The position numbers and the translations under genes were made by a program. A DNA stretch of 64,000 bases, taken from NCBI GenBank assembly GCA_938083505.1, contig CALKCF010000001.1:32001-96000 (forward strand), written 5' to 3'. The notes under the pieces are model-generated. The model was not told the origin of the DNA. It was given only the letters and a program-made list of their open reading frames with translations, and did no database searches. Below are positions 736-46,416 of the stretch, piece after piece; position 1 is the first letter of the stretch; each line of letters starts with the position of its first letter. This DNA comes from an uncultured archaeon. GTDB lineage: Archaea > Thermoproteota > Nitrososphaeria_A > Caldarchaeales > Wolframiiraptoraceae.

Positions 736-954
736 CTAGAGCCTGCATGCCCTCTTCATCTTTAAGGAGATTAACATAGTCCTAACGTCCTTTGGGTCCT
801 TGGATGTATACAGCACATATTTAGGATTCACATAATTTTTCTTACCACAACCGTGGCATACGAAATAACGCTCAGCAAAAGTAACTTGTAAGTGGCCGCA
901 GCTCGTGCATGATACAACCTTATACTCTTTACGCGATGCTCTAATATTCATCAA
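736..954 (-). CDS. Small Zn-ribbon protein (DUF1922-like)
   Basis: CTSC...CHGC motif pair in a 72-aa basic protein. Confidence 0.65.
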   Translation of the reverse strand: MMNIRASRKEYKVVSCTSCGHLQVTFAERYFVCHGCGKKNYVNPKYVLYTSKDPKDVRTMLISLKMKRACRL

Positions 955-7067: not shown

Positions 7068-8525
7068 CTAGCCTTTAATTACGCCTATAGGAACAAACCT
7101 AGCAACTTTTGTAGCTATTCCTACAGCGTGGCTTACATCAACAACCTCATCGACGTTCTTATATGCTTCGTCGGCCTCTTCTATTAAGGTCTCCGTGCTG
7201 TCGCTCCTGACGATTATGCCTTTGCTTTCCATCTCTTTTATAATAGTTAGGCCTGTGTAACGCCTCTTCGCACCTGCCCTGCTCATTTCTCTTCCAGCCC
7301 CATGAGCCGTGCTACCGAAGCTCAGCTCCATAGCTTTTGGATTTCCTAGCAAAAGCCAGCTTGCCGTTCCCATTGAGCCAGGAATTATCACAGGCTGCCC
7401 TATGCTCCTGTAATCACTGGGTATGAGTGGATGTCCAGCGGGGAAACTCCTCGTCGCTCCTTTTCTGTGAACATAAACGTCCTTCGTCTCACCGTTTACT
7501 TTATGCTTCTCTAGTTTCACGATGTTGTGGGCCACGTCATACACAAGCTTCATTCCAAGAGATTCTGCTGGCTGTTTGAATACCTCCTCGAAACTCTGTC
7601 TAACCCAGTGGCTAATCGCTTGCCTATTCGCGAACGCAAAGTTAACGGCGCACGCGAATGCCTTAAGGTACTGCTCAGCCTCGGGAGTGTTGGCAGGTGC
7701 GCATGCAAGCTCCCTATCTGGTAGCTTGATTCCATACTTGTGAGATGCCCTTTCCATGACCTTCAAGTAATCACTACATATTTGGTGACCGTAACCTCTG
7801 CTACCTGTATGGACTAAAACCGTTATCTGATTCTCATGATGTATCCCAATAATCTTTGCTGCTTCGCGGTCAAATATTTTGTCAACCCTTTGTATTTCGA
7901 GAAAGTGATTGCCGCTACCGAGCGTACCTATCTGAGACTCGCCTCTACTCTTAGCAGTCGGTGAGACTTTTGAGGGATCCGCTCCTTTTAAAGCCCCCTC
8001 TTCCTCTATGTACTTTATATCCTCACCCCATCCAAGCCCATACTTTTCTATTATATAGCGCGCCCCCTCTATCGCTATCCTATCAAGGTCTGAAGCACTC
8101 ACTCTGAAGTCCTTCCGCCTACTTCCAAGACCTGCGGGAATATTCCTAAAAATCGTGTCTATTAGTTCCTTTAACTTGGGCATGACTTCCTTTACGGTAA
8201 GGTTTGTTACCATAAGCCTGACGCCGCAGTTGATGTCGTATCCTACACCTCCTGGCGATATAACACCCTCCGTCGCATCCATAGCAGCCACACCTCCTAT
8301 GGGGAAACCGTACCCTTCGTGCGCATCAGGAAGCACTACGCTAGCTTTGTATATGCCTGGAAGCATAGCAACGTTTGCACCCTGCTCAAGTGTTCTGTCC
8401 TGTGTCATCTTTTGGAGTAACTTCTGAGATGCGAATATCACGACCGGTACCCTCATGCCCTGTTTGAAATCCTTCTCTATGGTCCATACGTTTTCATCTA
8501 ACTTCTTTAACGGTATATTGTTCAT
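7068..8525 (-). CDS. rtcB: RNA-splicing ligase RtcB
   Basis: LPDAHEGYGFPIGG, GYDINCG, GSGNHF, HTGSRG, HRKGAT, PGSMG, STAHGAGR. Confidence 0.97.
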   Translation of the reverse strand: MNNIPLKKLDENVWTIEKDFKQGMRVPVVIFASQKLLQKMTQDRTLEQGANVAMLPGIYKASVVLPDAHEGYGFPIGGVAAMDATEGVISPGGVGYDINCGVRLMVTNLTVKEVMPKLKELIDTIFRNIPAGLGSRRKDFRVSASDLDRIAIEGARYIIEKYGLGWGEDIKYIEEEGALKGADPSKVSPTAKSRGESQIGTLGSGNHFLEIQRVDKIFDREAAKIIGIHHENQITVLVHTGSRGYGHQICSDYLKVMERASHKYGIKLPDRELACAPANTPEAEQYLKAFACAVNFAFANRQAISHWVRQSFEEVFKQPAESLGMKLVYDVAHNIVKLEKHKVNGETKDVYVHRKGATRSFPAGHPLIPSDYRSIGQPVIIPGSMGTASWLLLGNPKAMELSFGSTAHGAGREMSRAGAKRRYTGLTIIKEMESKGIIVRSDSTETLIEEADEAYKNVDEVVDVSHAVGIATKVARFVPIGVIKG

Positions 8526-41717: not shown

Positions 41718-43766
41718 TTATCTTAGCTTTAACCTTTTTAACGTTAAGGAGTTTGTGACAACACTGACGGAACTCAACGCCATGGCTATACCGGCCAGTA
41801 TAGGATTAAGATACCCCATGGCAGCAATCGGTATGAGTGATGCGTTGTAAGCGAAGGCCCAAAAAAGATTTTGCTTTATCTTACGCATTATGTTCTTGCT
41901 AAGCTTTATCGCTGCCACGACGTTCCTTAAATCATCTTTTATCAGGACTATTCCAGAAGTTTCTATGGCGACGTCCGTTCCACTACTTATAGCAATACCT
42001 ACGTCAGCCTGAGCCAGTGCTGGAGCATCGTTCACACCATCGCCGACCATAGCCACTCTCCTTCCTTCTAGCTGAAGTTTCTTTATGACGTTAAGCTTTT
42101 CGGAGGGCAGAACCTCCGCTATCACGTGCTCTATATCAAGCTTCTTTGCTATCACCTTCGCCGTCCTTTCATTGTCACCCGTGAGCATTATGACTTCGAG
42201 ACCCATGGACTTCAACTGCTTCACGGTTTCAGCTGCATGCTCCTTCAGGATATCCTCTAAACCTATCAAAGCGACTGGTCTTTCATCAACCGAAATTATT
42301 AAAACTGTCTTACCTTCCTGCTCAAGCTTCCTCAGAGTTTCTTCAAACTCAAATAATCTGAGATTCATTGAGATAAGTAACTTTCTGTTACCTATAACTA
42401 CGTGTTTTCCATTTACGGTTGCAATGACACCTTTGCCGGGAACTGCCTCAAATTTTTCCGGTTTGATAAGCTCTATTCCGAGCTCTTTCGCCTTCTTAAT
42501 TATAGCCTCTCCCAATGGGTGTTCCGAGCCGAACTCGGCGGATGCAGCTAGCAATATAACCTCTTCTTCATTCATATCATCTAATAGTGTGATGCTCGTT
42601 ACTGTTGGCTCACCTTTTGTGAGTGTACCAGTTTTATCAAATACTACGCTCGTTATATTATATGCTCTTTCAAGGTTTTCTCCACCTTTTATCAGTATAC
42701 CGTTTTCGGCACCTTTTCCTACACCAACGACCACAGCCGCTGGTGTTGCTAGACCTAGAGCGCAGGGGCAGGCTACTATTAAAACTGCTATGAATGATTT
42801 AAGACCGAGAAGAGGGTTGCCAAAAAGGAGATACCATGTTAAGAATGCGATGATGCTGATGCTCACAACTGCAGGAACGAAGTATGAGGCCACCCTATCC
42901 ACCAATCGCTCTATTGGAGCTTGAGCGGTCTGAGCTTCTTCAACAAGCCTTACTATCTGGGATAGTGTGGTGTCAGCTCCAACCTTAGTTGCTCTAATCA
43001 AGAGAAGGCCACTCCTGTTAATCGTACCGCCTATAACTTTGTCACCAACTTCTTTTTCTACGGGAATGCTTTCACCAGTCACGATTTTTTCATCGACTGC
43101 AGAATGACCGTCGATGACTATACCATCTACCGGTATCTTCTCACCCGGTTTAACTAATAACAAGTCACCAACCCTAACCTTTTCGACAGGAACTACCGTC
43201 TCGACATTATCCCATATGACTCTTGCCGTGGTTGGCTGTAGTTCCATAAGCTTCCTTACAACATCCGATGCCCTCCTTCTTACGCTATGCTCGAGCAGTC
43301 TTCCGAGAAGTACGAATGCTATTATCAACGCTGATACTTCATAGTACAATTCTCCGGAAAACACGGATGGCAAGAATGTCGCAAGCGTGCTATAAAACCA
43401 AGCTGCAGAGGTTCCTATGGCTATGAGCGTATCCATGTTTGCTGACTTGGCTCTAATCGCGTGCCACATGCCTTTGTAGAAAGACCAACCCGCAATAAAC
43501 TGTACCGAAGTTGCCATAAAGAACAACAGTAGGCTATTATTTACGGGTAAAGATGGAGTCGAAAACCATGTTAGTATAAAGATAGATATTCCTAGTGCGA
43601 AGCTAAAGATTGTCATCATTTTCAATTTTCTAACTTCAATCTCGGGCATTAAGAAAGTCTTGAGGCAAGTTTCACTGCAAAAGTAGTACGTTCTCCCCCT
43701 CACGGTTGCCTTTAGGGCATCCTCCGTCTCTTCCACGAACATTCCACATACAGGGTCTTTTGCCAC
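41718..43766 (-). CDS. copA: Cu(I)-translocating P1B-type ATPase with N-terminal YHS/TRASH domain
   Basis: DPVCGM..YYFCS..C, TGES, CPCALG, DKTGT, SEHP, GDGVND, YN and MALSS. Confidence 0.95.
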
Positions 43767-43913: not shown

Positions 43914-44579
43914 ATGAATAAGTTTGAAGAAGACCTATCGAAAATCATTGCACGTATAGGCGACAAGTACGGCAAAGAAGTTATAAATAAACTCCATAAC
44001 ATGTACAAGAAGTTGTGTAAACTGTACGAAGCTAACATTGTTAAGATAAATCATTCAGTGATGGAGGTTGTCTGTGCTACTGAGTTAATCGTTAAAGGTT
44101 ATGATGTAGATGTTGAGTATAGACTCAACGACATACTCGTGTGCGACGTATATGGAGTAAAAGGTGATGGTAACATTATAATCGAGATAGAGACTGGCTT
44201 CGTACCCCCCGAACATGCACTTGACCCAAATACTTACCTATTAGCTAGGGTTGCCAGCAAGATAGCAAGGTACAGTACCTTCGCAAAAAAGTTTGGTATC
44301 GGAACACCGCCGCATAACATCGTTCAGATACCGTACGTATTCCTAAAGCCGCCAAGAGACAGGACTGAGAAAGAGGTGCTTTATCTCAAGAAGATCTGCG
44401 ACCTCTACTACACAAAACCACCTGTTAGTTTTGAAGAAATACTCAACGCAAGACTTTGCGTAGTCTATGTGATAAACGTTGACGAAGCGACGGTCAGCGA
44501 ATTATCACCACAAGAATACTATGAAATGCTCAAACAAGCGATGAAGGACACAAATACATCTCTATTTGTTCATAAATAA
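43914..44579 (+). CDS. Conserved archaeal hypothetical protein, PD-(D/E)XK-like
   Basis: VEY...CDVY...IIEIETG pattern resembles a restriction-endonuclease-like core. Confidence 0.6.
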   Translation: MNKFEEDLSKIIARIGDKYGKEVINKLHNMYKKLCKLYEANIVKINHSVMEVVCATELIVKGYDVDVEYRLNDILVCDVYGVKGDGNIIIEIETGFVPPEHALDPNTYLLARVASKIARYSTFAKKFGIGTPPHNIVQIPYVFLKPPRDRTEKEVLYLKKICDLYYTKPPVSFEEILNARLCVVYVINVDEATVSELSPQEYYEMLKQAMKDTNTSLFVHK

Positions 44580-44591
44580 TGTTTTAAAGTC

Positions 44592-44804
44592 GCGTCGTCT
44601 TTCGGAGATGGCAGGCCTCCCTGCTAGGGCACCCCTCCGTGGGTTTTAATCCCCCAGGTACCCTATGGGCACCTCCCACCCATACCCAGCTTAGGGACGC
44701 TGCCAAGGCGGCCTCTGAAGCACTGGGCATGGGTCGGCGCATACAACATCTGAGGCTTCCCCCAGATGCTGTTTAGCACCGGCCTCTCCTTTTCCGGACG
44801 ACGC
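44592..44804 (-). ncRNA. Unidentified structured ncRNA closed by a bulge-helix-bulge motif (candidate circRNA precursor)
   Basis: GC-rich island in AT-rich intergenic DNA; terminal stem GCGUCGUC/GACGACGC; internal hairpins whose mismatches are G-U only on the minus strand; upstream TATA box. Confidence 0.8.
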
Positions 44805-44827
44805 AAATTGTTGTATAGCTTAATGTT

Positions 44828-44843
44828 AATTTATACATTTCAC
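44828..44843 (-). promoter_or_regulatory. BRE/TATA promoter of the ncRNA
   Basis: Minus strand GTGAAATG-TATAAATT about 30 nt upstream of the 5' stem at 44804. Confidence 0.6.
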
Positions 44844-45063
44844 TCTAAAATAGTAAAAGCATTACTTCATAATTGTAACGAGGAAAAATGTTTTTGAAAA
44901 TTTTATTAAAAATAACCATTAATAAAATCTTAAAAGCTCAATCCAAATTCTAAATTAGCCAAATTCGCAAGATTGTCATATTTTATTTGTAACGTCTTCC
45001 TAATTCTTGAAAAATATGACAACAACCTTCTCGAATTACCAAATAAATTCTGATCTTGTCGAT

Positions 45064-46134
45064 TTATGCGACTACTTTTACTTTTTCTTTATAAAGACGT
45101 CTTCTAAACCAAAGCGCCACGTTTACCAACGAAATCATCACGGGAACTTCTATCAAGGGGCCGATAACCGTTGCAAAAGCTTCCTTGGAAGCTAAGCCGA
45201 AAACGGATACGGATACGGCTATCGCAAGGTCAAAGTTGTTGCTCGCGGCCGTAAAAGCCAGGGAAGTGACCCTACTGTAATCAAGGCCTGATTTATAACC
45301 AATTAGGAAGGATAGGAGGAACATTATAACAAAGTAGGAAAGTAGTGGTATTGCCACCCTCACAACGTCCATTGGAAGGGTGATTATGTACTCACCTTTT
45401 AAGGAGAACATTACGATGATTGTAAACAACAGGGCAAAAAGAGATGTTGGTCCAAGTCTTGGCATAAGAATTTTATCATACCATTCTCTTCCTTTCTTTT
45501 TAAGGAAATAGAAACGTGTAATAATTCCACCAAAGAATGGAATGCCGAGGTATACGAGAACCGACGTAGCAACTTCTATAAAGGATATTTCAACTAACGT
45601 GCCAGTGCCAGCAATCCAAGAACTTGCGAGGGTGATATAGAAGTAAGCGTAGACGGAATAGAAAGCTGTCTGGAATACCGAGTTTAAGGCGACGAGTATA
45701 GCAGCCCACTCCCTATCACCGTCAGCAAGATCGTTCCAGACGATGACCATAGCTATGCACCTTGCTAAACCCACTAGAATTACGCCATTTCTGAATTCAG
45801 GGTAATCTGCGAGGAATACCCATGCAAGAACGAACATAAGAAACGGGCCCACCAAGTAGTTGAGTATAAGCGACTCTGTAACCATGGTTTTCGAGCCTCC
45901 AGCCGTGACGATCTTCCTAAGCTCTTCATACCTTACCTTGGCAAGGGACGGATACATCATCCAAATTAGACCTATCGCTATAGGGATAGAAGTAGTGCCT
46001 ATGCTTAACTGGCCCAGTATATCAGCGATACTTGAAAAGACGTAACCCAAGCTTATGCCGATTATCATTGCTAAAAAAATCCAAAGCGTTAGAAACTTGC
46101 TCAAGATTGGGAGGCCAGTTTTTTGTTCGGTCAT
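45064..46134 (-). CDS. acr3: ACR3 family arsenite efflux transporter
   Basis: LTLWIF, MMYP, GLARCIAMV, NS, ASNNF, GPLIEVP. Confidence 0.95.
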   Translation of the reverse strand: MTEQKTGLPILSKFLTLWIFLAMIIGISLGYVFSSIADILGQLSIGTTSIPIAIGLIWMMYPSLAKVRYEELRKIVTAGGSKTMVTESLILNYLVGPFLMFVLAWVFLADYPEFRNGVILVGLARCIAMVIVWNDLADGDREWAAILVALNSVFQTAFYSVYAYFYITLASSWIAGTGTLVEISFIEVATSVLVYLGIPFFGGIITRFYFLKKKGREWYDKILMPRLGPTSLFALLFTIIVMFSLKGEYIITLPMDVVRVAIPLLSYFVIMFLLSFLIGYKSGLDYSRVTSLAFTAASNNFDLAIAVSVSVFGLASKEAFATVIGPLIEVPVMISLVNVALWFRRRLYKEKVKVVA

Positions 46135-46332: not shown

Positions 46333-46416
46333 TGCCGGGGCTGGGATTCGAACCCAGGATGGCCTACGCCAGTGGGTCTTAAGCCCACCCCCTTGACCAG
46401 GCTCGGGTACCCCGGC
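46333..46416 (-). tRNA. tRNA-Leu(UAA), no intron, CCA not encoded
   Basis: GCCGGGG acceptor, anticodon loop CTTAAGA, long variable arm, GGTTCGAATCC, discriminator A. Confidence 0.95.

What the first reader, a model, noticed from the sequence alone, without database searches (positions are those of the whole stretch)
44592..44804. Stand-alone ncRNA gene with a canonical bulge-helix-bulge motif: predicted 190-nt circular RNA
Seen (minus strand): 5'-GCGUCGUC-CGGA-AAA-GG...UC-UCCG-AAA-GACGACGC-3'. This gives an 8-bp outer stem, a 4-bp central helix CGGA/UCCG and two 3-nt AAA bulges in exact BHB geometry. A TATA box lies about 30 nt upstream, so the flanking exons total only about 23 nt. Known: archaeal splicing endonuclease cuts BHB after the second bulge nucleotide and excised pieces are circularised; a permuted SRP RNA matures this way in Thermoproteus. 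Predicted cuts at 44791/44790 and 44601/44600 release 190 nt. Ligating that piece creates a new hairpin, UCUCC-GAAA-GGAGA, with a GNRA tetraloop across the junction, which suggests the circle is the selected product. The interior folds into several hairpins: a 13-bp stem with GAAG loop, ACCCAUGCCCAGU/GCUGGGUAUGGGU, AGGUGCCC/GGGUACCU and GCAGG/CCUGC. I could not match it to tRNA, 5S, SRP, RNase P, C/D or H/ACA RNAs. RtcB is encoded in the same window.
Basis: partly seen in the sequence, partly recalled or inferred. Interest (0 to 1): 0.9.

Follow-up and report, generated by a model that had tools for sequence, protein, structure and literature searches.

The report
New archaeal RNA, probably circularised
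This is a real gene for a previously undescribed, highly structured RNA found in many hot-spring and soil archaea; its ends form the same cut-and-join signal as the cell's ribosomal RNA precursors, so it is probably excised as a 190-base circle, and it travels with an uncharacterised nuclease-like protein gene.

Summary
Window 44592-44804 (minus strand) is a 213-nt GC-rich RNA gene with a conserved promoter, a strong fold (z -6.7) and no Rfam match. The genome has canonical SRP, RNase P, 5S, 16S and 23S RNAs elsewhere.

I recovered about 85 homologs in Caldarchaeales (Aigarchaeota) and Nitrososphaerales, and the secondary structure covaries. The termini nearly always form an 8-bp outer stem, a 4-bp helix and two 3-nt bulges, the same geometry as this genome's own 16S and 23S processing stems. 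The 5' strand of the 4-bp helix would be discarded with the exon, yet it covaries with its 3' partner in five fully Watson-Crick variants. Cutting after the second bulge nucleotide and ligating always gives a G-A-R-A (GNRA) tetraloop on helix P2.

EndA/RtcB excision to a 190-nt circle is therefore well supported comparatively. It is not shown: no RNA data could be reached.

The RNA gene co-occurs with, is co-lost with and is co-duplicated with a conserved PD-(D/E)XK-fold protein gene (43914-44579). The function of both is unknown.

The scan noted this stretch before (e1-743683, e1-5641226) and the family in another genome (e1-708860).

The parts
44829..44845 (-). Archaeal promoter block GAGTGAAATGTATAAAT (BRE plus TATA). 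The TATA box starts 31 nt upstream of the outer stem.
   Evidence: Invariant apart from one T/C (Y) position in 7 of 7 species of the genus, while the spacer varies. An analogous BRE/TATA sits at the same 31-nt spacing in other genera.
44797..44804 (-). Outer stem P1, 5' strand GCGUCGUC. It extends to 10 bp with 44805-44806. This is the predicted 5' exon.
   Evidence: It covaries heavily: 7 of the helix's 9 pairs, as annotated, show changes on both sides. More than 10 different 8-bp sequences occur across lineages.
44793..44796 (-). BHB central helix, 5' strand CGGA (H5). It would leave with the exon.
   Evidence: It pairs with UCCG at 44603-44606. Five fully Watson-Crick variants occur in homologs: CGGA/UCCG, CAGG/CCUG, CGAA/UUCG, CGGG/CCCG and CGGC/GCCG.
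44790..44792 (-). 5' bulge AAA. The predicted cut is between 44791 and 44790.
   Evidence: Always 3 nt. Nucleotide 3 is A in every homolog that parsed to this geometry. Nucleotide 2 can be A, G, C or U.
44601..44790 (-). Predicted 190-nt excised, circularised RNA body: P2 plus three long arms on a four-way junction.
   Evidence: Inferred from the BHB geometry and the known EndA cut position. The body's structure is supported by covariation.
44785..44789 (-). Helix P2, 5' strand GGAGA. It pairs with UCUCC at 44604-44608. In the circle P2 is capped by GAAA.
   Evidence: It covaries: GGAGC/GCUCC, GAAGC/GCUUC, GGGAG/CUCCC, AGGAG/CUCCU.
44735..44781 (-). Arm A: 6-bp lower stem, small internal loop, 13-bp upper stem, GAAG loop.
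   Evidence: 14 of 18 pairs show double changes across 12 homologs. The tetraloop is G-N-N-G/A in all lineages.
44678..44734 (-). Arm B: 13-bp stem, internal loop, short apical stem with a stable tetraloop.
44613..44674 (-). Arm C: long stem UAGGGUACC/GGUGCCCUA with a structured apex.
   Evidence: The MFE folds of distant homologs agree with one another, whereas the within-genus RNAalifold consensus is different.
44603..44606 (-). BHB central helix, 3' strand UCCG (H3). Its first three nucleotides are also the end of P2.
   Evidence: Triple covariation: this nucleotide is U, C or G while both of its alternative partners change in step.
44600..44602 (-). 3' bulge AAA. The predicted cut is between 44601 and 44600.
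   Evidence: Always 3 nt. Nucleotide 1 is always A, nucleotide 2 is A or G (C in 2 homologs), and nucleotide 3 is any base.
44592..44599 (-). Outer stem P1, 3' strand GACGACGC. This is the predicted 3' exon.
   Evidence: Same evidence as for the 5' strand.
43914..44579 (+). Convergent 221-aa gene for a PD-(D/E)XK-fold protein. Its stop codon lies 13 nt from the RNA's 3' end. It is the likely partner of the RNA.
   Evidence: No Pfam, NCBIfam or PADLOC match. The AF2 model has pLDDT 92. VIA-align gives Z 10 to 3dnx, 9.3 to XisH and 7.3 to NucS. It co-occurs with, is co-lost with and is co-duplicated with the RNA.
7071..8384 (-). RtcB RNA ligase gene, the general machinery for joining BHB cleavage products.
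   Evidence: PF01139, 578 bits. Two EndA paralogs lie on other contigs.

Best explanation
The locus is a stand-alone gene for a new family of structured non-coding RNA.

Proposed biogenesis:
- Transcription starts at or within a few nucleotides of the base of an 8-10-bp terminal stem.
- In the precursor, the four nucleotides after the stem (CGGA) pair with UCCG near the 3' end. This makes a bulge-helix-bulge motif like the one that flanks this organism's 16S and 23S rRNAs.
- The splicing endonuclease (two EndA paralogs, hence probably the broad-specificity alpha2-beta2 type) cuts after the second nucleotide of each 3-nt bulge.
- RtcB joins the ends. The product is a 190-nt circle plus a by-product hairpin of about 22 nt.
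- Removing the 5' competitor strand lets UCC re-pair with GGA of helix P2, which is now capped by a GAAA tetraloop assembled from the two cut sites.
- The mature RNA is a closed four-way junction: short P2 plus three arms of about 50-60 nt.

Proposed role: the RNA most likely acts together with the adjacent conserved PD-(D/E)XK-fold protein, as scaffold, cofactor or substrate.

Shown here: the gene, the fold, the motif, its conservation and covariation, and the gene linkage. Inferred: cleavage, ligation, circularity, and any RNA-protein complex or function.
For: 1. A real gene of a new family.
- No Rfam hit at gathering score or at E <= 10 on this copy, and none at E <= 1 on 12 other copies.
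- The genome has canonical SRP, RNase P, 5S, 16S and 23S RNAs elsewhere.
- Covariance models found full-length homologs in 29 of 34 other genomes of the family, in other Caldarchaeales families, in 12 of 41 sampled Nitrososphaerales, and in 47 further Nitrososphaerales or unclassified-archaeal MAG loci (a few duplicating earlier ones) by pattern.

2. Conserved BHB geometry.
- P1 of 8 bp, a 4-bp helix H and 3-nt bulges parsed in 40 of 42 homologs of the first set and 43 of 46 of the second.

3. Same motif as bona fide substrates in this genome.
- 16S: GCCC-CCAU-AAA-UUCC / GGAA-GUGG-AAA-GGGC.
- 23S: ACGU-CGCC-AGC-UGGG / CCCA-GGCG-AAA-ACGU.
- SRP, RNase P and 5S RNAs have plain terminal helices.

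4. The H helix covaries.
- There are five fully Watson-Crick variants.
- The 3' nucleotide shared by H and P2 changes U -> C -> G while both of its alternative partners change A -> G -> C/U.
- Only 360 of 40,320 permutations of H3 among lineage types pair as well as the observed assignment.

5. Split tetraloop.
- The four nucleotides that would form the junction loop (last of H3, bulge-3' positions 1-2, bulge-5' position 3) read GAAA or GAGA in 81 of the 86 parsed homologs (GACA in 2; 3 mis-parse). The neighbouring exon-side positions take any base.

6. The BHB conformer is accessible.
- ddG to the MFE is 0-8.9 kcal/mol at 37 C and 0-1.8 (one case 5.2) at 75 C. It is the MFE itself in L161, L175 and, at 75 C, the window copy.

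7. The machinery is present: two EndA genes and RtcB.

8. Linkage to the protein.
- Within the class, presence or absence matches genus by genus. g3 (0 of 3), G014 and G044 lack both.
- The only family-f4 genome with the protein has the RNA beside it.
- G043 has two copies of both.
- Three different gene orders keep the two genes together.
Against: - There is no transcript, end-mapping or junction evidence of any kind.
- In this copy the inner helix h' is only 2 bp, and at 37 C the P2 conformer is slightly favoured.
- Seven homologs (genus g5) have an A.G mismatch at the first H pair. Three have one mismatch (L208, L220, L223). Two related MAGs (L216, L233) have lost H pairing altogether, so circularisation cannot be essential everywhere.
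- The invariant bulge purines could also be read as tandem sheared A.G / A.A pairs stacking on P2 in a linear RNA.
- The protein is much more widespread than the detectable RNA. Bathyarchaeia, most AOA, genus g7 (f3) and others have the protein with no RNA found.
Confidence: 0.65

Rival explanations
1. The RNA is a linear stable RNA of about 210 nt. P1 simply closes the molecule, as in SRP or RNase P RNA. The 7x4 internal loop (CGGAARA / GAAN) is a protein-binding or tertiary motif, and the H pairing is an alternative conformer with no processing role.
For: - The MFE at 37 C has P2 formed and the loop open.
- The invariant A and G loop residues could form sheared pairs on P2.
- Other stable RNAs of this genome have paired termini.
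- Two MAGs lack H pairing.
Against: - It gives no reason for the 4-nt H5 segment to covary with the 3' strand through five Watson-Crick variants, nor for a triple covariation.
- It gives no reason for the exact 4-bp / 3-nt / 3-nt geometry that copies the rRNA BHBs.
- It does not explain why variability falls precisely on the exon side of the predicted cuts.
Confidence: 0.2
2. The BHB is cut and the ends are ligated, but the circle is only a maturation intermediate, as for archaeal pre-16S and pre-23S rRNA. It is reopened elsewhere to give a permuted or trimmed linear mature RNA.
For: - This is the known fate of circular pre-rRNAs (PMC7714728; bioRxiv 10.64898/2026.03.23.713588).
- The motif equals the rRNA BHBs of this genome.
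- In genera g2 and g4 the gene sits next to the 16S gene.
Against: - The conserved GNRA loop across the junction and the P2 covariation argue that the ligated junction is part of the functional structure.
- No second conserved processing motif was seen.
Confidence: 0.08
3. The element is a cis-antisense or 3'-end regulatory element of the neighbouring protein gene rather than an independent functional RNA.
For: - The arrangement is tail-to-tail with a 13-nt spacing here and a 24-47-nt overlap with the protein's 3' end in other genera.
- It is co-directional and immediately downstream of the protein in Nitrosocaldus.
Against: - It has its own conserved promoter at fixed spacing.
- It has about 190 nt of covarying structure.
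- It occurs unlinked from the protein in genus g9 and separated from it by a PRTase gene in a large clade.
- Orientation changes while the structure is kept.
Confidence: 0.04
4. It is a divergent or permuted member of a known RNA class: SRP, RNase P type T, 5S, a box C/D or H/ACA guide, or a TnpB omega-RNA.
For: - Its size resembles type T RNase P RNA.
- Local strings resemble the P10-P12 region of RNase P (from my memory only).
- The permuted SRP RNA of Thermoproteus is a precedent.
Against: - Canonical SRP (136 bits), RNase P (155 bits) and 5S (87 bits) RNAs are present in the same genome.
- No Rfam family matches at E <= 10.
- The order of the look-alike segments cannot be reconciled with RNase P even after circular permutation.
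- I found no K-turn by eye, and there is no TnpB nearby.
Confidence: 0.02

Closest known systems
Circular pre-16S and pre-23S rRNA intermediates of Archaea (BHB in the processing stem, EndA plus RtcB)
   Same: The motif geometry is identical, and the bulges are A-rich 3-nt bulges as in this genome's own 16S and 23S flanks. A long outer stem brings the two ends of a stable RNA together, and the whole RNA body is the 'intron'.
   Different: The RNA is 190 nt and of unknown function, not rRNA. The inner helix is short and overlaps a helix of the mature body. The junction appears to be built into the final structure as a GNRA cap rather than removed later.
Permuted SRP RNA of Thermoproteus (Plagens et al. 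2015, PMC4731332)
   Same: It is a stand-alone non-coding RNA gene whose functional form is proposed to need BHB cleavage and circularisation.
   Different: There the gene is circularly permuted and the product is a known RNA (SRP). Here the gene is collinear, the RNA family is new, and a canonical SRP RNA exists elsewhere in the genome.
Circular tRNA introns that carry a functional RNA (tRNA-Trp intron box C/D sRNA; metazoan tricRNAs, PMC6614914)
   Same: A functional RNA is released as a circle from between BHB cut sites.
   Different: Those have a functional host, the tRNA exons. Here the exons are only a ~22-nt hairpin with no conserved sequence, so the circle is the only plausible product.
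BHB intron in the 5' UTR of HVO_1309 of Haloferax volcanii (Schwarz et al. 2020, PMC7714728)
   Same: It is a non-tRNA, non-rRNA EndA substrate found through its circular product.
   Different: That one is a 46-nt intron that regulates an mRNA. This is a 190-nt conserved structured RNA in its own transcription unit.
Circular omega-RNAs of IS200/IS605 TnpB (PMC12558985)
   Same: A structured archaeal ncRNA is genetically tied to a nuclease gene and occurs in circular form.
   Different: Those circles lack a BHB and the partner is the RuvC-type TnpB. Here the partner is a small PD-(D/E)XK-fold protein, there are no transposon ends, and the biogenesis signal is a BHB.

Membership tests
BHB (hBHBh') substrate of archaeal splicing endonuclease | Central helix of 4 base pairs | tested here: met
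   CGGA/UCCG in the window. Four pairs form in 33 of the 40 parsed homologs of the first set and in 40 of 46 of the second. Five Watson-Crick variants occur.
BHB (hBHBh') substrate of archaeal splicing endonuclease | Two 3-nt bulges on opposite strands, each 3' of its central-helix strand | tested here: met
   AAA and AAA in the window. The length is invariant at 3 nt in all parsed homologs. The layout is the same as in the genome's 16S and 23S BHBs.
BHB (hBHBh') substrate of archaeal splicing endonuclease | Outer flanking helix h | tested here: met
   P1 of 8-12 bp with strong covariation.
BHB (hBHBh') substrate of archaeal splicing endonuclease | Inner flanking helix h' | tested here: inconclusive
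   Only 2 bp (G-C, G.U) before an internal loop in the window. It is 3-4 bp in the f2g6, f2g9 and Nitrososphaerales copies, where the full hBHBh' is the MFE. The alpha2-beta2 enzymes accept relaxed forms (PMC7714728, PMC5829648).
BHB (hBHBh') substrate of archaeal splicing endonuclease | Cleavage by EndA and a ligated (circular) product | not testable with these tools
   No RNA run was listed. The junction-order scan of metagenome contigs gave chance hits only.
Archaeal SRP RNA (RF01857) | Match to the covariance model; sole SRP RNA of the genome | tested here: not met
   No hit at E <= 10. A canonical SRP RNA lies at G000:C3:66381-66700, 136 bits.
RNase P RNA (RF00373 and RF02357, type T) | Match to the covariance model; P4 and CR-I/CR-V elements | tested here: not met
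   No hit at E <= 10 against all of Rfam. A canonical RNase P RNA lies at G000:C5:1210-1500, 155 bits.
Box C/D or H/ACA guide RNAs | K-turn (C/D boxes) or pseudouridylation pocket plus ACA | tested here: inconclusive
   No Rfam match. Inspection by eye of the internal loop found no GA/AG K-turn register and no pocket-sized loops. No dedicated snoRNA scanner was available.
PD-(D/E)XK nuclease superfamily (neighbouring protein) | Restriction-endonuclease-like alpha-beta-beta-beta-alpha-beta core with acidic residues on the strands | tested here: met
   The AF2 model has pLDDT 92. VIA-align gives Z 10.0 to 3dnx, 9.3 to 2okf (XisH), 8.5 to 1y88 and 7.3 to 2vld (NucS). D78, E91, E93 and K116 are invariant. 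Catalysis was not tested.

The most novel reading that the evidence does not exclude
The 190-nt circle is the RNA subunit of a previously unknown ribonucleoprotein formed with the PD-(D/E)XK-fold protein. The module is ancient and conserved across Nitrososphaeria. The protein also occurs in Bathyarchaeia, where a still undetected RNA may exist. A covalently closed, GNRA-capped four-way-junction RNA would scaffold or direct a nuclease in nucleic-acid processing. Its position beside the rRNA operon, an SRP RNA gene or a tRNA methyltransferase gene in several lineages hints at stable-RNA metabolism. That would be the first dedicated gene whose only product is a BHB-made functional circular RNA of a new class.
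Probability: 0.3. Interest if true: 0.9.

Novelty: new variant of a known kind. Interest (0 to 1): 0.8.

Why it matters
Known products of the archaeal BHB pathway are tRNAs, rRNA intermediates, a few introns and one permuted SRP RNA. This is a whole RNA family, with about 85 species-level copies from hot springs, groundwater, peat and soil, whose gene seems built solely to deliver a circular structured RNA.

The evolutionary signature is unusually clean. A discarded strand covaries with the retained one, and a tetraloop is split between two cut sites.

If confirmed, this would do three things:
- add a new class of stable circular RNA to archaeal biology;
- give a natural design for making circular RNAs;
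- assign a first lead (an RNA partner) to a very conserved, completely uncharacterised nuclease-like protein family of TACK archaea, with more than 3,700 members.

It also shows that covariation alone can predict post-transcriptional circularisation.

Tried and rejected
- **Rfam.** Searches at gathering score and at E <= 10 or E <= 1 on this copy and 12 other copies found nothing relevant. The only weak hits were a flavivirus CRE at 19 bits and STnc550 at 10 bits, both chance.
- **SRP, RNase P or 5S replacement.** Rejected, because all three are present elsewhere in the genome.
- **RNase P S-domain likeness.** I recalled local string similarity from memory. The order of the segments cannot be matched even on a circle, so I dropped it.
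- **K-turn, loop E or UAA/GAN reading of the internal loop.** No consistent register was found.
- **RNA-seq.** No RNA holder was listed, so read laying could not be used.
- **Junction or permuted-order pattern in metagenome contigs.** Two hits, both chance matches inside a protein-coding gene.
- **Bathyarchaeia and most AOA protein loci.** No RNA is adjacent. The apparent gap there holds a small GIY-YIG-like ORF.
- **R2 on f3g7, G014 and G008 with lax filters.** Nothing found.
- **Spurious hits.** The R2 hit G006:C22 is spurious, as are the bacterial hits of the first pattern scan.
- **PADLOC, Pfam and NCBIfam for the protein.** Nothing.
- **Foldseek against PDB.** Only weak hits, E about 1e-3.
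- **Literature.** Searches found no description of this RNA.
Full report
**1. What is in the sequence**

On the minus strand, window 44804-44592 reads GCGUCGUC-CGGA-AAA-GGAGAGGCC ... GCCAUC-UCCG-AAA-GACGACGC.
- It is a 213-nt island of 62% GC in surroundings of about 42% GC.
- It folds to -119 kcal/mol, against -85.7 +/- 5 for dinucleotide shuffles, z = -6.7.
- ARAGORN and Rfam see only a tRNA-Leu at 46333-46416 in the whole window.
- A permissive Rfam scan (E <= 10) of the locus returns only two chance hits.

**2. It is not a known RNA**

The genome is G000: 1.15 Mb, 10 contigs, 98.5% complete. Record titles of the congeners place the genus in Candidatus Terraquivivens, Aigarchaeota/Caldarchaeales. 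It has the following canonical RNAs elsewhere:
- archaeal SRP RNA, 136 bits;
- RNase P RNA, 155 bits;
- 5S rRNA, 87 bits;
- 16S rRNA and 23S rRNA.

**3. It is a conserved gene**
- BLASTN finds it in six of six other species of the genus at 79-86% identity.
- In the flanked alignment, conservation starts exactly at the outer stem and stops exactly at its end.
- A promoter block GAGTGAAAYGTATAAAT is invariant, with its TATA box starting 31 nt upstream.
- The same BRE/TATA spacing, and a downstream T-run, recur in other genera.

Covariance models extended the family step by step:

| Model or scan | Where it found homologs |
|---|---|
| R1 (7 sequences) | Other genera of the family; Nitrosocaldus |
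| R2 (12 diverse sequences) | 29 of 34 other genomes of the family (g1 6/6, g4 3/3, g5 7/8, g2 13/14, g3 0/3) |
| R2, further searches | Divergent ~180-nt copies in families f2 and f4 |
| R2, Nitrososphaerales sample | 12 of 41 genomes |
| Three-block DNA pattern | 47 further Nitrososphaerales or unclassified-archaeal MAG loci (a few duplicating earlier ones): Nitrosocaldus spp., a Nitrosotalea MAG, Nitrosomirales, peat and groundwater lineages |

None of these variants hits Rfam.

On 12 diverse sequences the structure pairs in 80% of cells against 64.5% for shuffles. The covariation score is 0.43, against 0.19 for shuffles and 0.09-0.14 when partners are slid.

The common architecture is P1, the terminal motif, P2, and a four-way junction with three long arms.

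**4. Is the bulge-helix-bulge real?**

BHB definition: a 4-bp helix flanked by two 3-nt bulges. The alpha-beta-type enzyme of TACK archaea tolerates deviations (PMC7714728).

4.1 *Geometry.* In 40 of 42 Caldarchaeales/Nitrosocaldus copies and 43 of 46 further Nitrososphaerales copies, the ends parse as P1 (8 bp), H (4), bulge (3) ... H (4), bulge (3), P1. The bulge lengths never vary.

4.2 *The organism's own standards.*
- 16S flanks form ...GCCC-CCAU-AAA-UUCCUAGGG / CCCUAGGAA-GUGG-AAA-GGGC....
- 23S flanks form GGAGACGU-CGCC-AGC-UGGGCGG / CCGCCCA-GGCG-AAA-ACGUCUCC.
- The strand layout is the same and the bulges are A-rich 3-nt bulges, as in the candidate.
- The SRP, RNase P and 5S RNAs of the same genome end in plain helices.

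4.3 *Covariation of H.* The 5' strand of H would be thrown away with the exon, yet it tracks the 3' strand. H5/H3 variants seen:
- fully Watson-Crick: CGGA/UCCG, CAGG/CCUG, CGAA/UUCG, CGGG/CCCG, CGGC/GCCG;
- wobble intermediates: CGGG/UCCG, CGGA/UUCG, CGGG/CCUG.

The first three nucleotides of H3 are also the last three of helix P2. When that shared position changes U -> C -> G, both of its alternative partners change: A -> G -> C in H5, and A -> G -> U in P2. I call this a triple covariation. Among eight lineage types, only 360 of 40,320 permutations of H3 pair as well as the real assignment. The lineages are related, so this is indicative and not a P-value.

4.4 *The split tetraloop.* I take the cut position from the known geometry of tRNA introns (nucleotides 37|38 and the A-I pair). 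That is established knowledge and was not tested here. Cutting after the second bulge nucleotide and ligating gives the loop [last nucleotide of H3][3' bulge 1-2][5' bulge 3].
- The loop reads GAAA (35), GAGA (3) or GACA (2) in the first set. It reads GAAA (20) or GAGA (23) in the second set.
- The adjacent exon-side positions vary freely: 5' bulge nucleotide 2 is A, G, C or U, and 3' bulge nucleotide 3 is A, U, G or C.

4.5 *Energetics.* Forcing the BHB costs 1.7 kcal/mol at 37 C and nothing at 75 C for the window RNA. It is the unconstrained MFE in L161 and L175.

4.6 *Machinery.* There are two EndA paralogs of about 190 aa, consistent with an alpha2-beta2 enzyme, and RtcB at window 7071-8384.

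**5. Caveats**
- Nothing here shows an RNA molecule. No RNA run could be listed. A scan of metagenome contigs for the 3' block followed closely by the 5' block gave two chance hits in a coding gene.
- The inner helix h' is short in this copy.
- Genus g5 has an A.G at the first H pair.
- L208/L220 and L223 have one mismatch. L216 and L233 have lost H pairing.
- The invariant bulge purines could also form sheared pairs on P2 in a linear RNA. That reading does not explain the H5 covariation.
- I therefore put EndA/RtcB circularisation at about two in three. A purely linear RNA gets about one in five. A transient circle that is reopened gets under one in ten.

**6. The neighbouring gene**

Immediately tail-to-tail lies a 221-aa ORF (43914-44579 +). 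Its stop codon is 13 nt from the RNA's end.
- It has no Pfam, NCBIfam or PADLOC match.
- It has 3,776 homologs at about 55% identity in Nitrososphaerota and Bathyarchaeia.
- Invariant motifs are KINHSxME, D78, E91-x-E93-TGF, ALDP, SKIxRY and CDxYY.
- The AlphaFold model (pLDDT 92) has a PD-(D/E)XK core: VIA-align Z 10.0 to 3dnx, 9.3 to XisH (2okf), 8.5 to AF1548, 7.3 to NucS. Foldseek matches are weak.

Within the 76 genomes of the class, RNA and protein go together:
- g1, g4, g5 and g2 have both.
- g3, G014 and G044 have neither.
- The single f4 genome with the protein (G051) has the RNA beside it.
- G043 has two RNA copies, each next to a protein copy. The second protein copy is broken.

The pair persists through rearrangement:

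| Arrangement | Lineage |
|---|---|
| Convergent | Caldarchaeales |
| Protein then RNA | Nitrosocaldus and relatives |
| RNA, then a phosphoribosyltransferase gene, then protein | A large Nitrososphaerales clade |
| Unlinked, both present | Genus g9 |

Other contexts:
- In g2 and g4 the RNA gene lies 300-390 bp from, and divergent to, the 16S gene.
- In L187 it sits by an SRP RNA gene and a tRNA gene.

The linkage has limits. The protein occurs without a detectable RNA in Bathyarchaeia, most AOA and f3g7. Either the RNA is too diverged for my models or the protein also works alone. A functional partnership (RNP, cofactor or substrate) is the most economical reading, but it is an inference.

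**7. Comparison with the known, and verdict**

The biogenesis signal is a member of the BHB class: four defining features are met, the inner helix is inconclusive, and cleavage is untestable here. The RNA itself belongs to no described family. The closest known cases are:
- circular pre-rRNAs;
- the permuted SRP RNA of Thermoproteus (PMC4731332);
- functional circular tRNA introns;
- the HVO_1309 UTR intron (PMC7714728).

It differs from all of them in being a collinear, dedicated gene whose exons are a throw-away hairpin and whose ligation junction is a conserved structural element.

I file it as a new variant of a known kind (BHB-made circular RNA) that carries a new RNA family, with a possibly new RNP behind it.

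Earlier notes of this scan had flagged the same stretch as a structured RNA (e1-743683, e1-5641226). They had also flagged the family plus its tail-to-tail nuclease-like gene in another genome (e1-708860). I reached the protein linkage independently before reading that note.

Noticed in passing
window 43914-44579 (+); loci L041-L120: The 221-aa neighbour belongs to a large, highly conserved family: 3,776 homologs at about 55% identity across Nitrososphaerota and Bathyarchaeia. The family is entirely unannotated, has a PD-(D/E)XK fold, and has invariant KINHSxME / D / ExE / SKIxRY / CDxYY motifs.
   Followed up: partly
G000:C2:160742-162265 (16S) and G000:C5:2797-5869 (23S); L170, L171: The 16S and 23S rRNA genes are unlinked, on different contigs. 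The 23S gene lies about 1.3 kb from the RNase P RNA gene (C5:1210-1500). Both rRNAs have textbook BHB processing stems with AAA or AGC bulges.
   Followed up: partly
L036:194-1201 and L040:1-1111 (16S) next to the RNA at 1501-1715: In two other genera of the family, the RNA gene is divergently placed 300-390 bp from the 5' end of the 16S rRNA gene. A putative RNA methylase gene of the UPF0020/Trm14 type, judged by eye from its DPMCGGGTIPIEA...NPPYG motifs (no domain search was run), follows the nuclease-like gene.
   Followed up: no
L043-L113 (Bathyarchaeia), about 20-330 nt downstream of the protein gene: In Bathyarchaeia the nuclease-like gene is followed, co-directionally, by a small conserved ORF of about 85-100 aa. 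Its N-terminus (MPFYVYILLC..DGSFYTGYT) looks like a GIY-YIG (URI) domain. There is no RNA gene there.
   Followed up: no
G043:C26:63615-63816 and 64043-64366: A second copy of the RNA lies next to a decayed second copy of the protein gene (1 TGA and 1 TAG inside). This suggests the pair duplicated as a unit. MAG DRTY6_bin.138 likewise carries two RNA copies (L208, L220).
   Followed up: no
L189:1763-2410 and the equivalent position in 19 loci of L190-L238: In a large Nitrososphaerales clade, a 215-aa phosphoribosyltransferase-like gene (VVIVDDGIATGSS motif) sits between the RNA gene and the nuclease-like gene, always in the same order and on the same strand.
   Followed up: no
L187:2540-2850 (-) and 865-949 (-): In one AT-rich Nitrososphaerales genome, the RNA gene lies in a cluster with the SRP RNA gene and a tRNA gene.
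   Followed up: no
window 41718-43766 (-), 45064-46134 (-), 46333-46416 (-): The RNA-protein pair is embedded here between a YHS-domain P-type ATPase and an SBF/ACR3-type transporter, just downstream of tRNA-Leu(TAA). This context is not shared by other genera.
   Followed up: no
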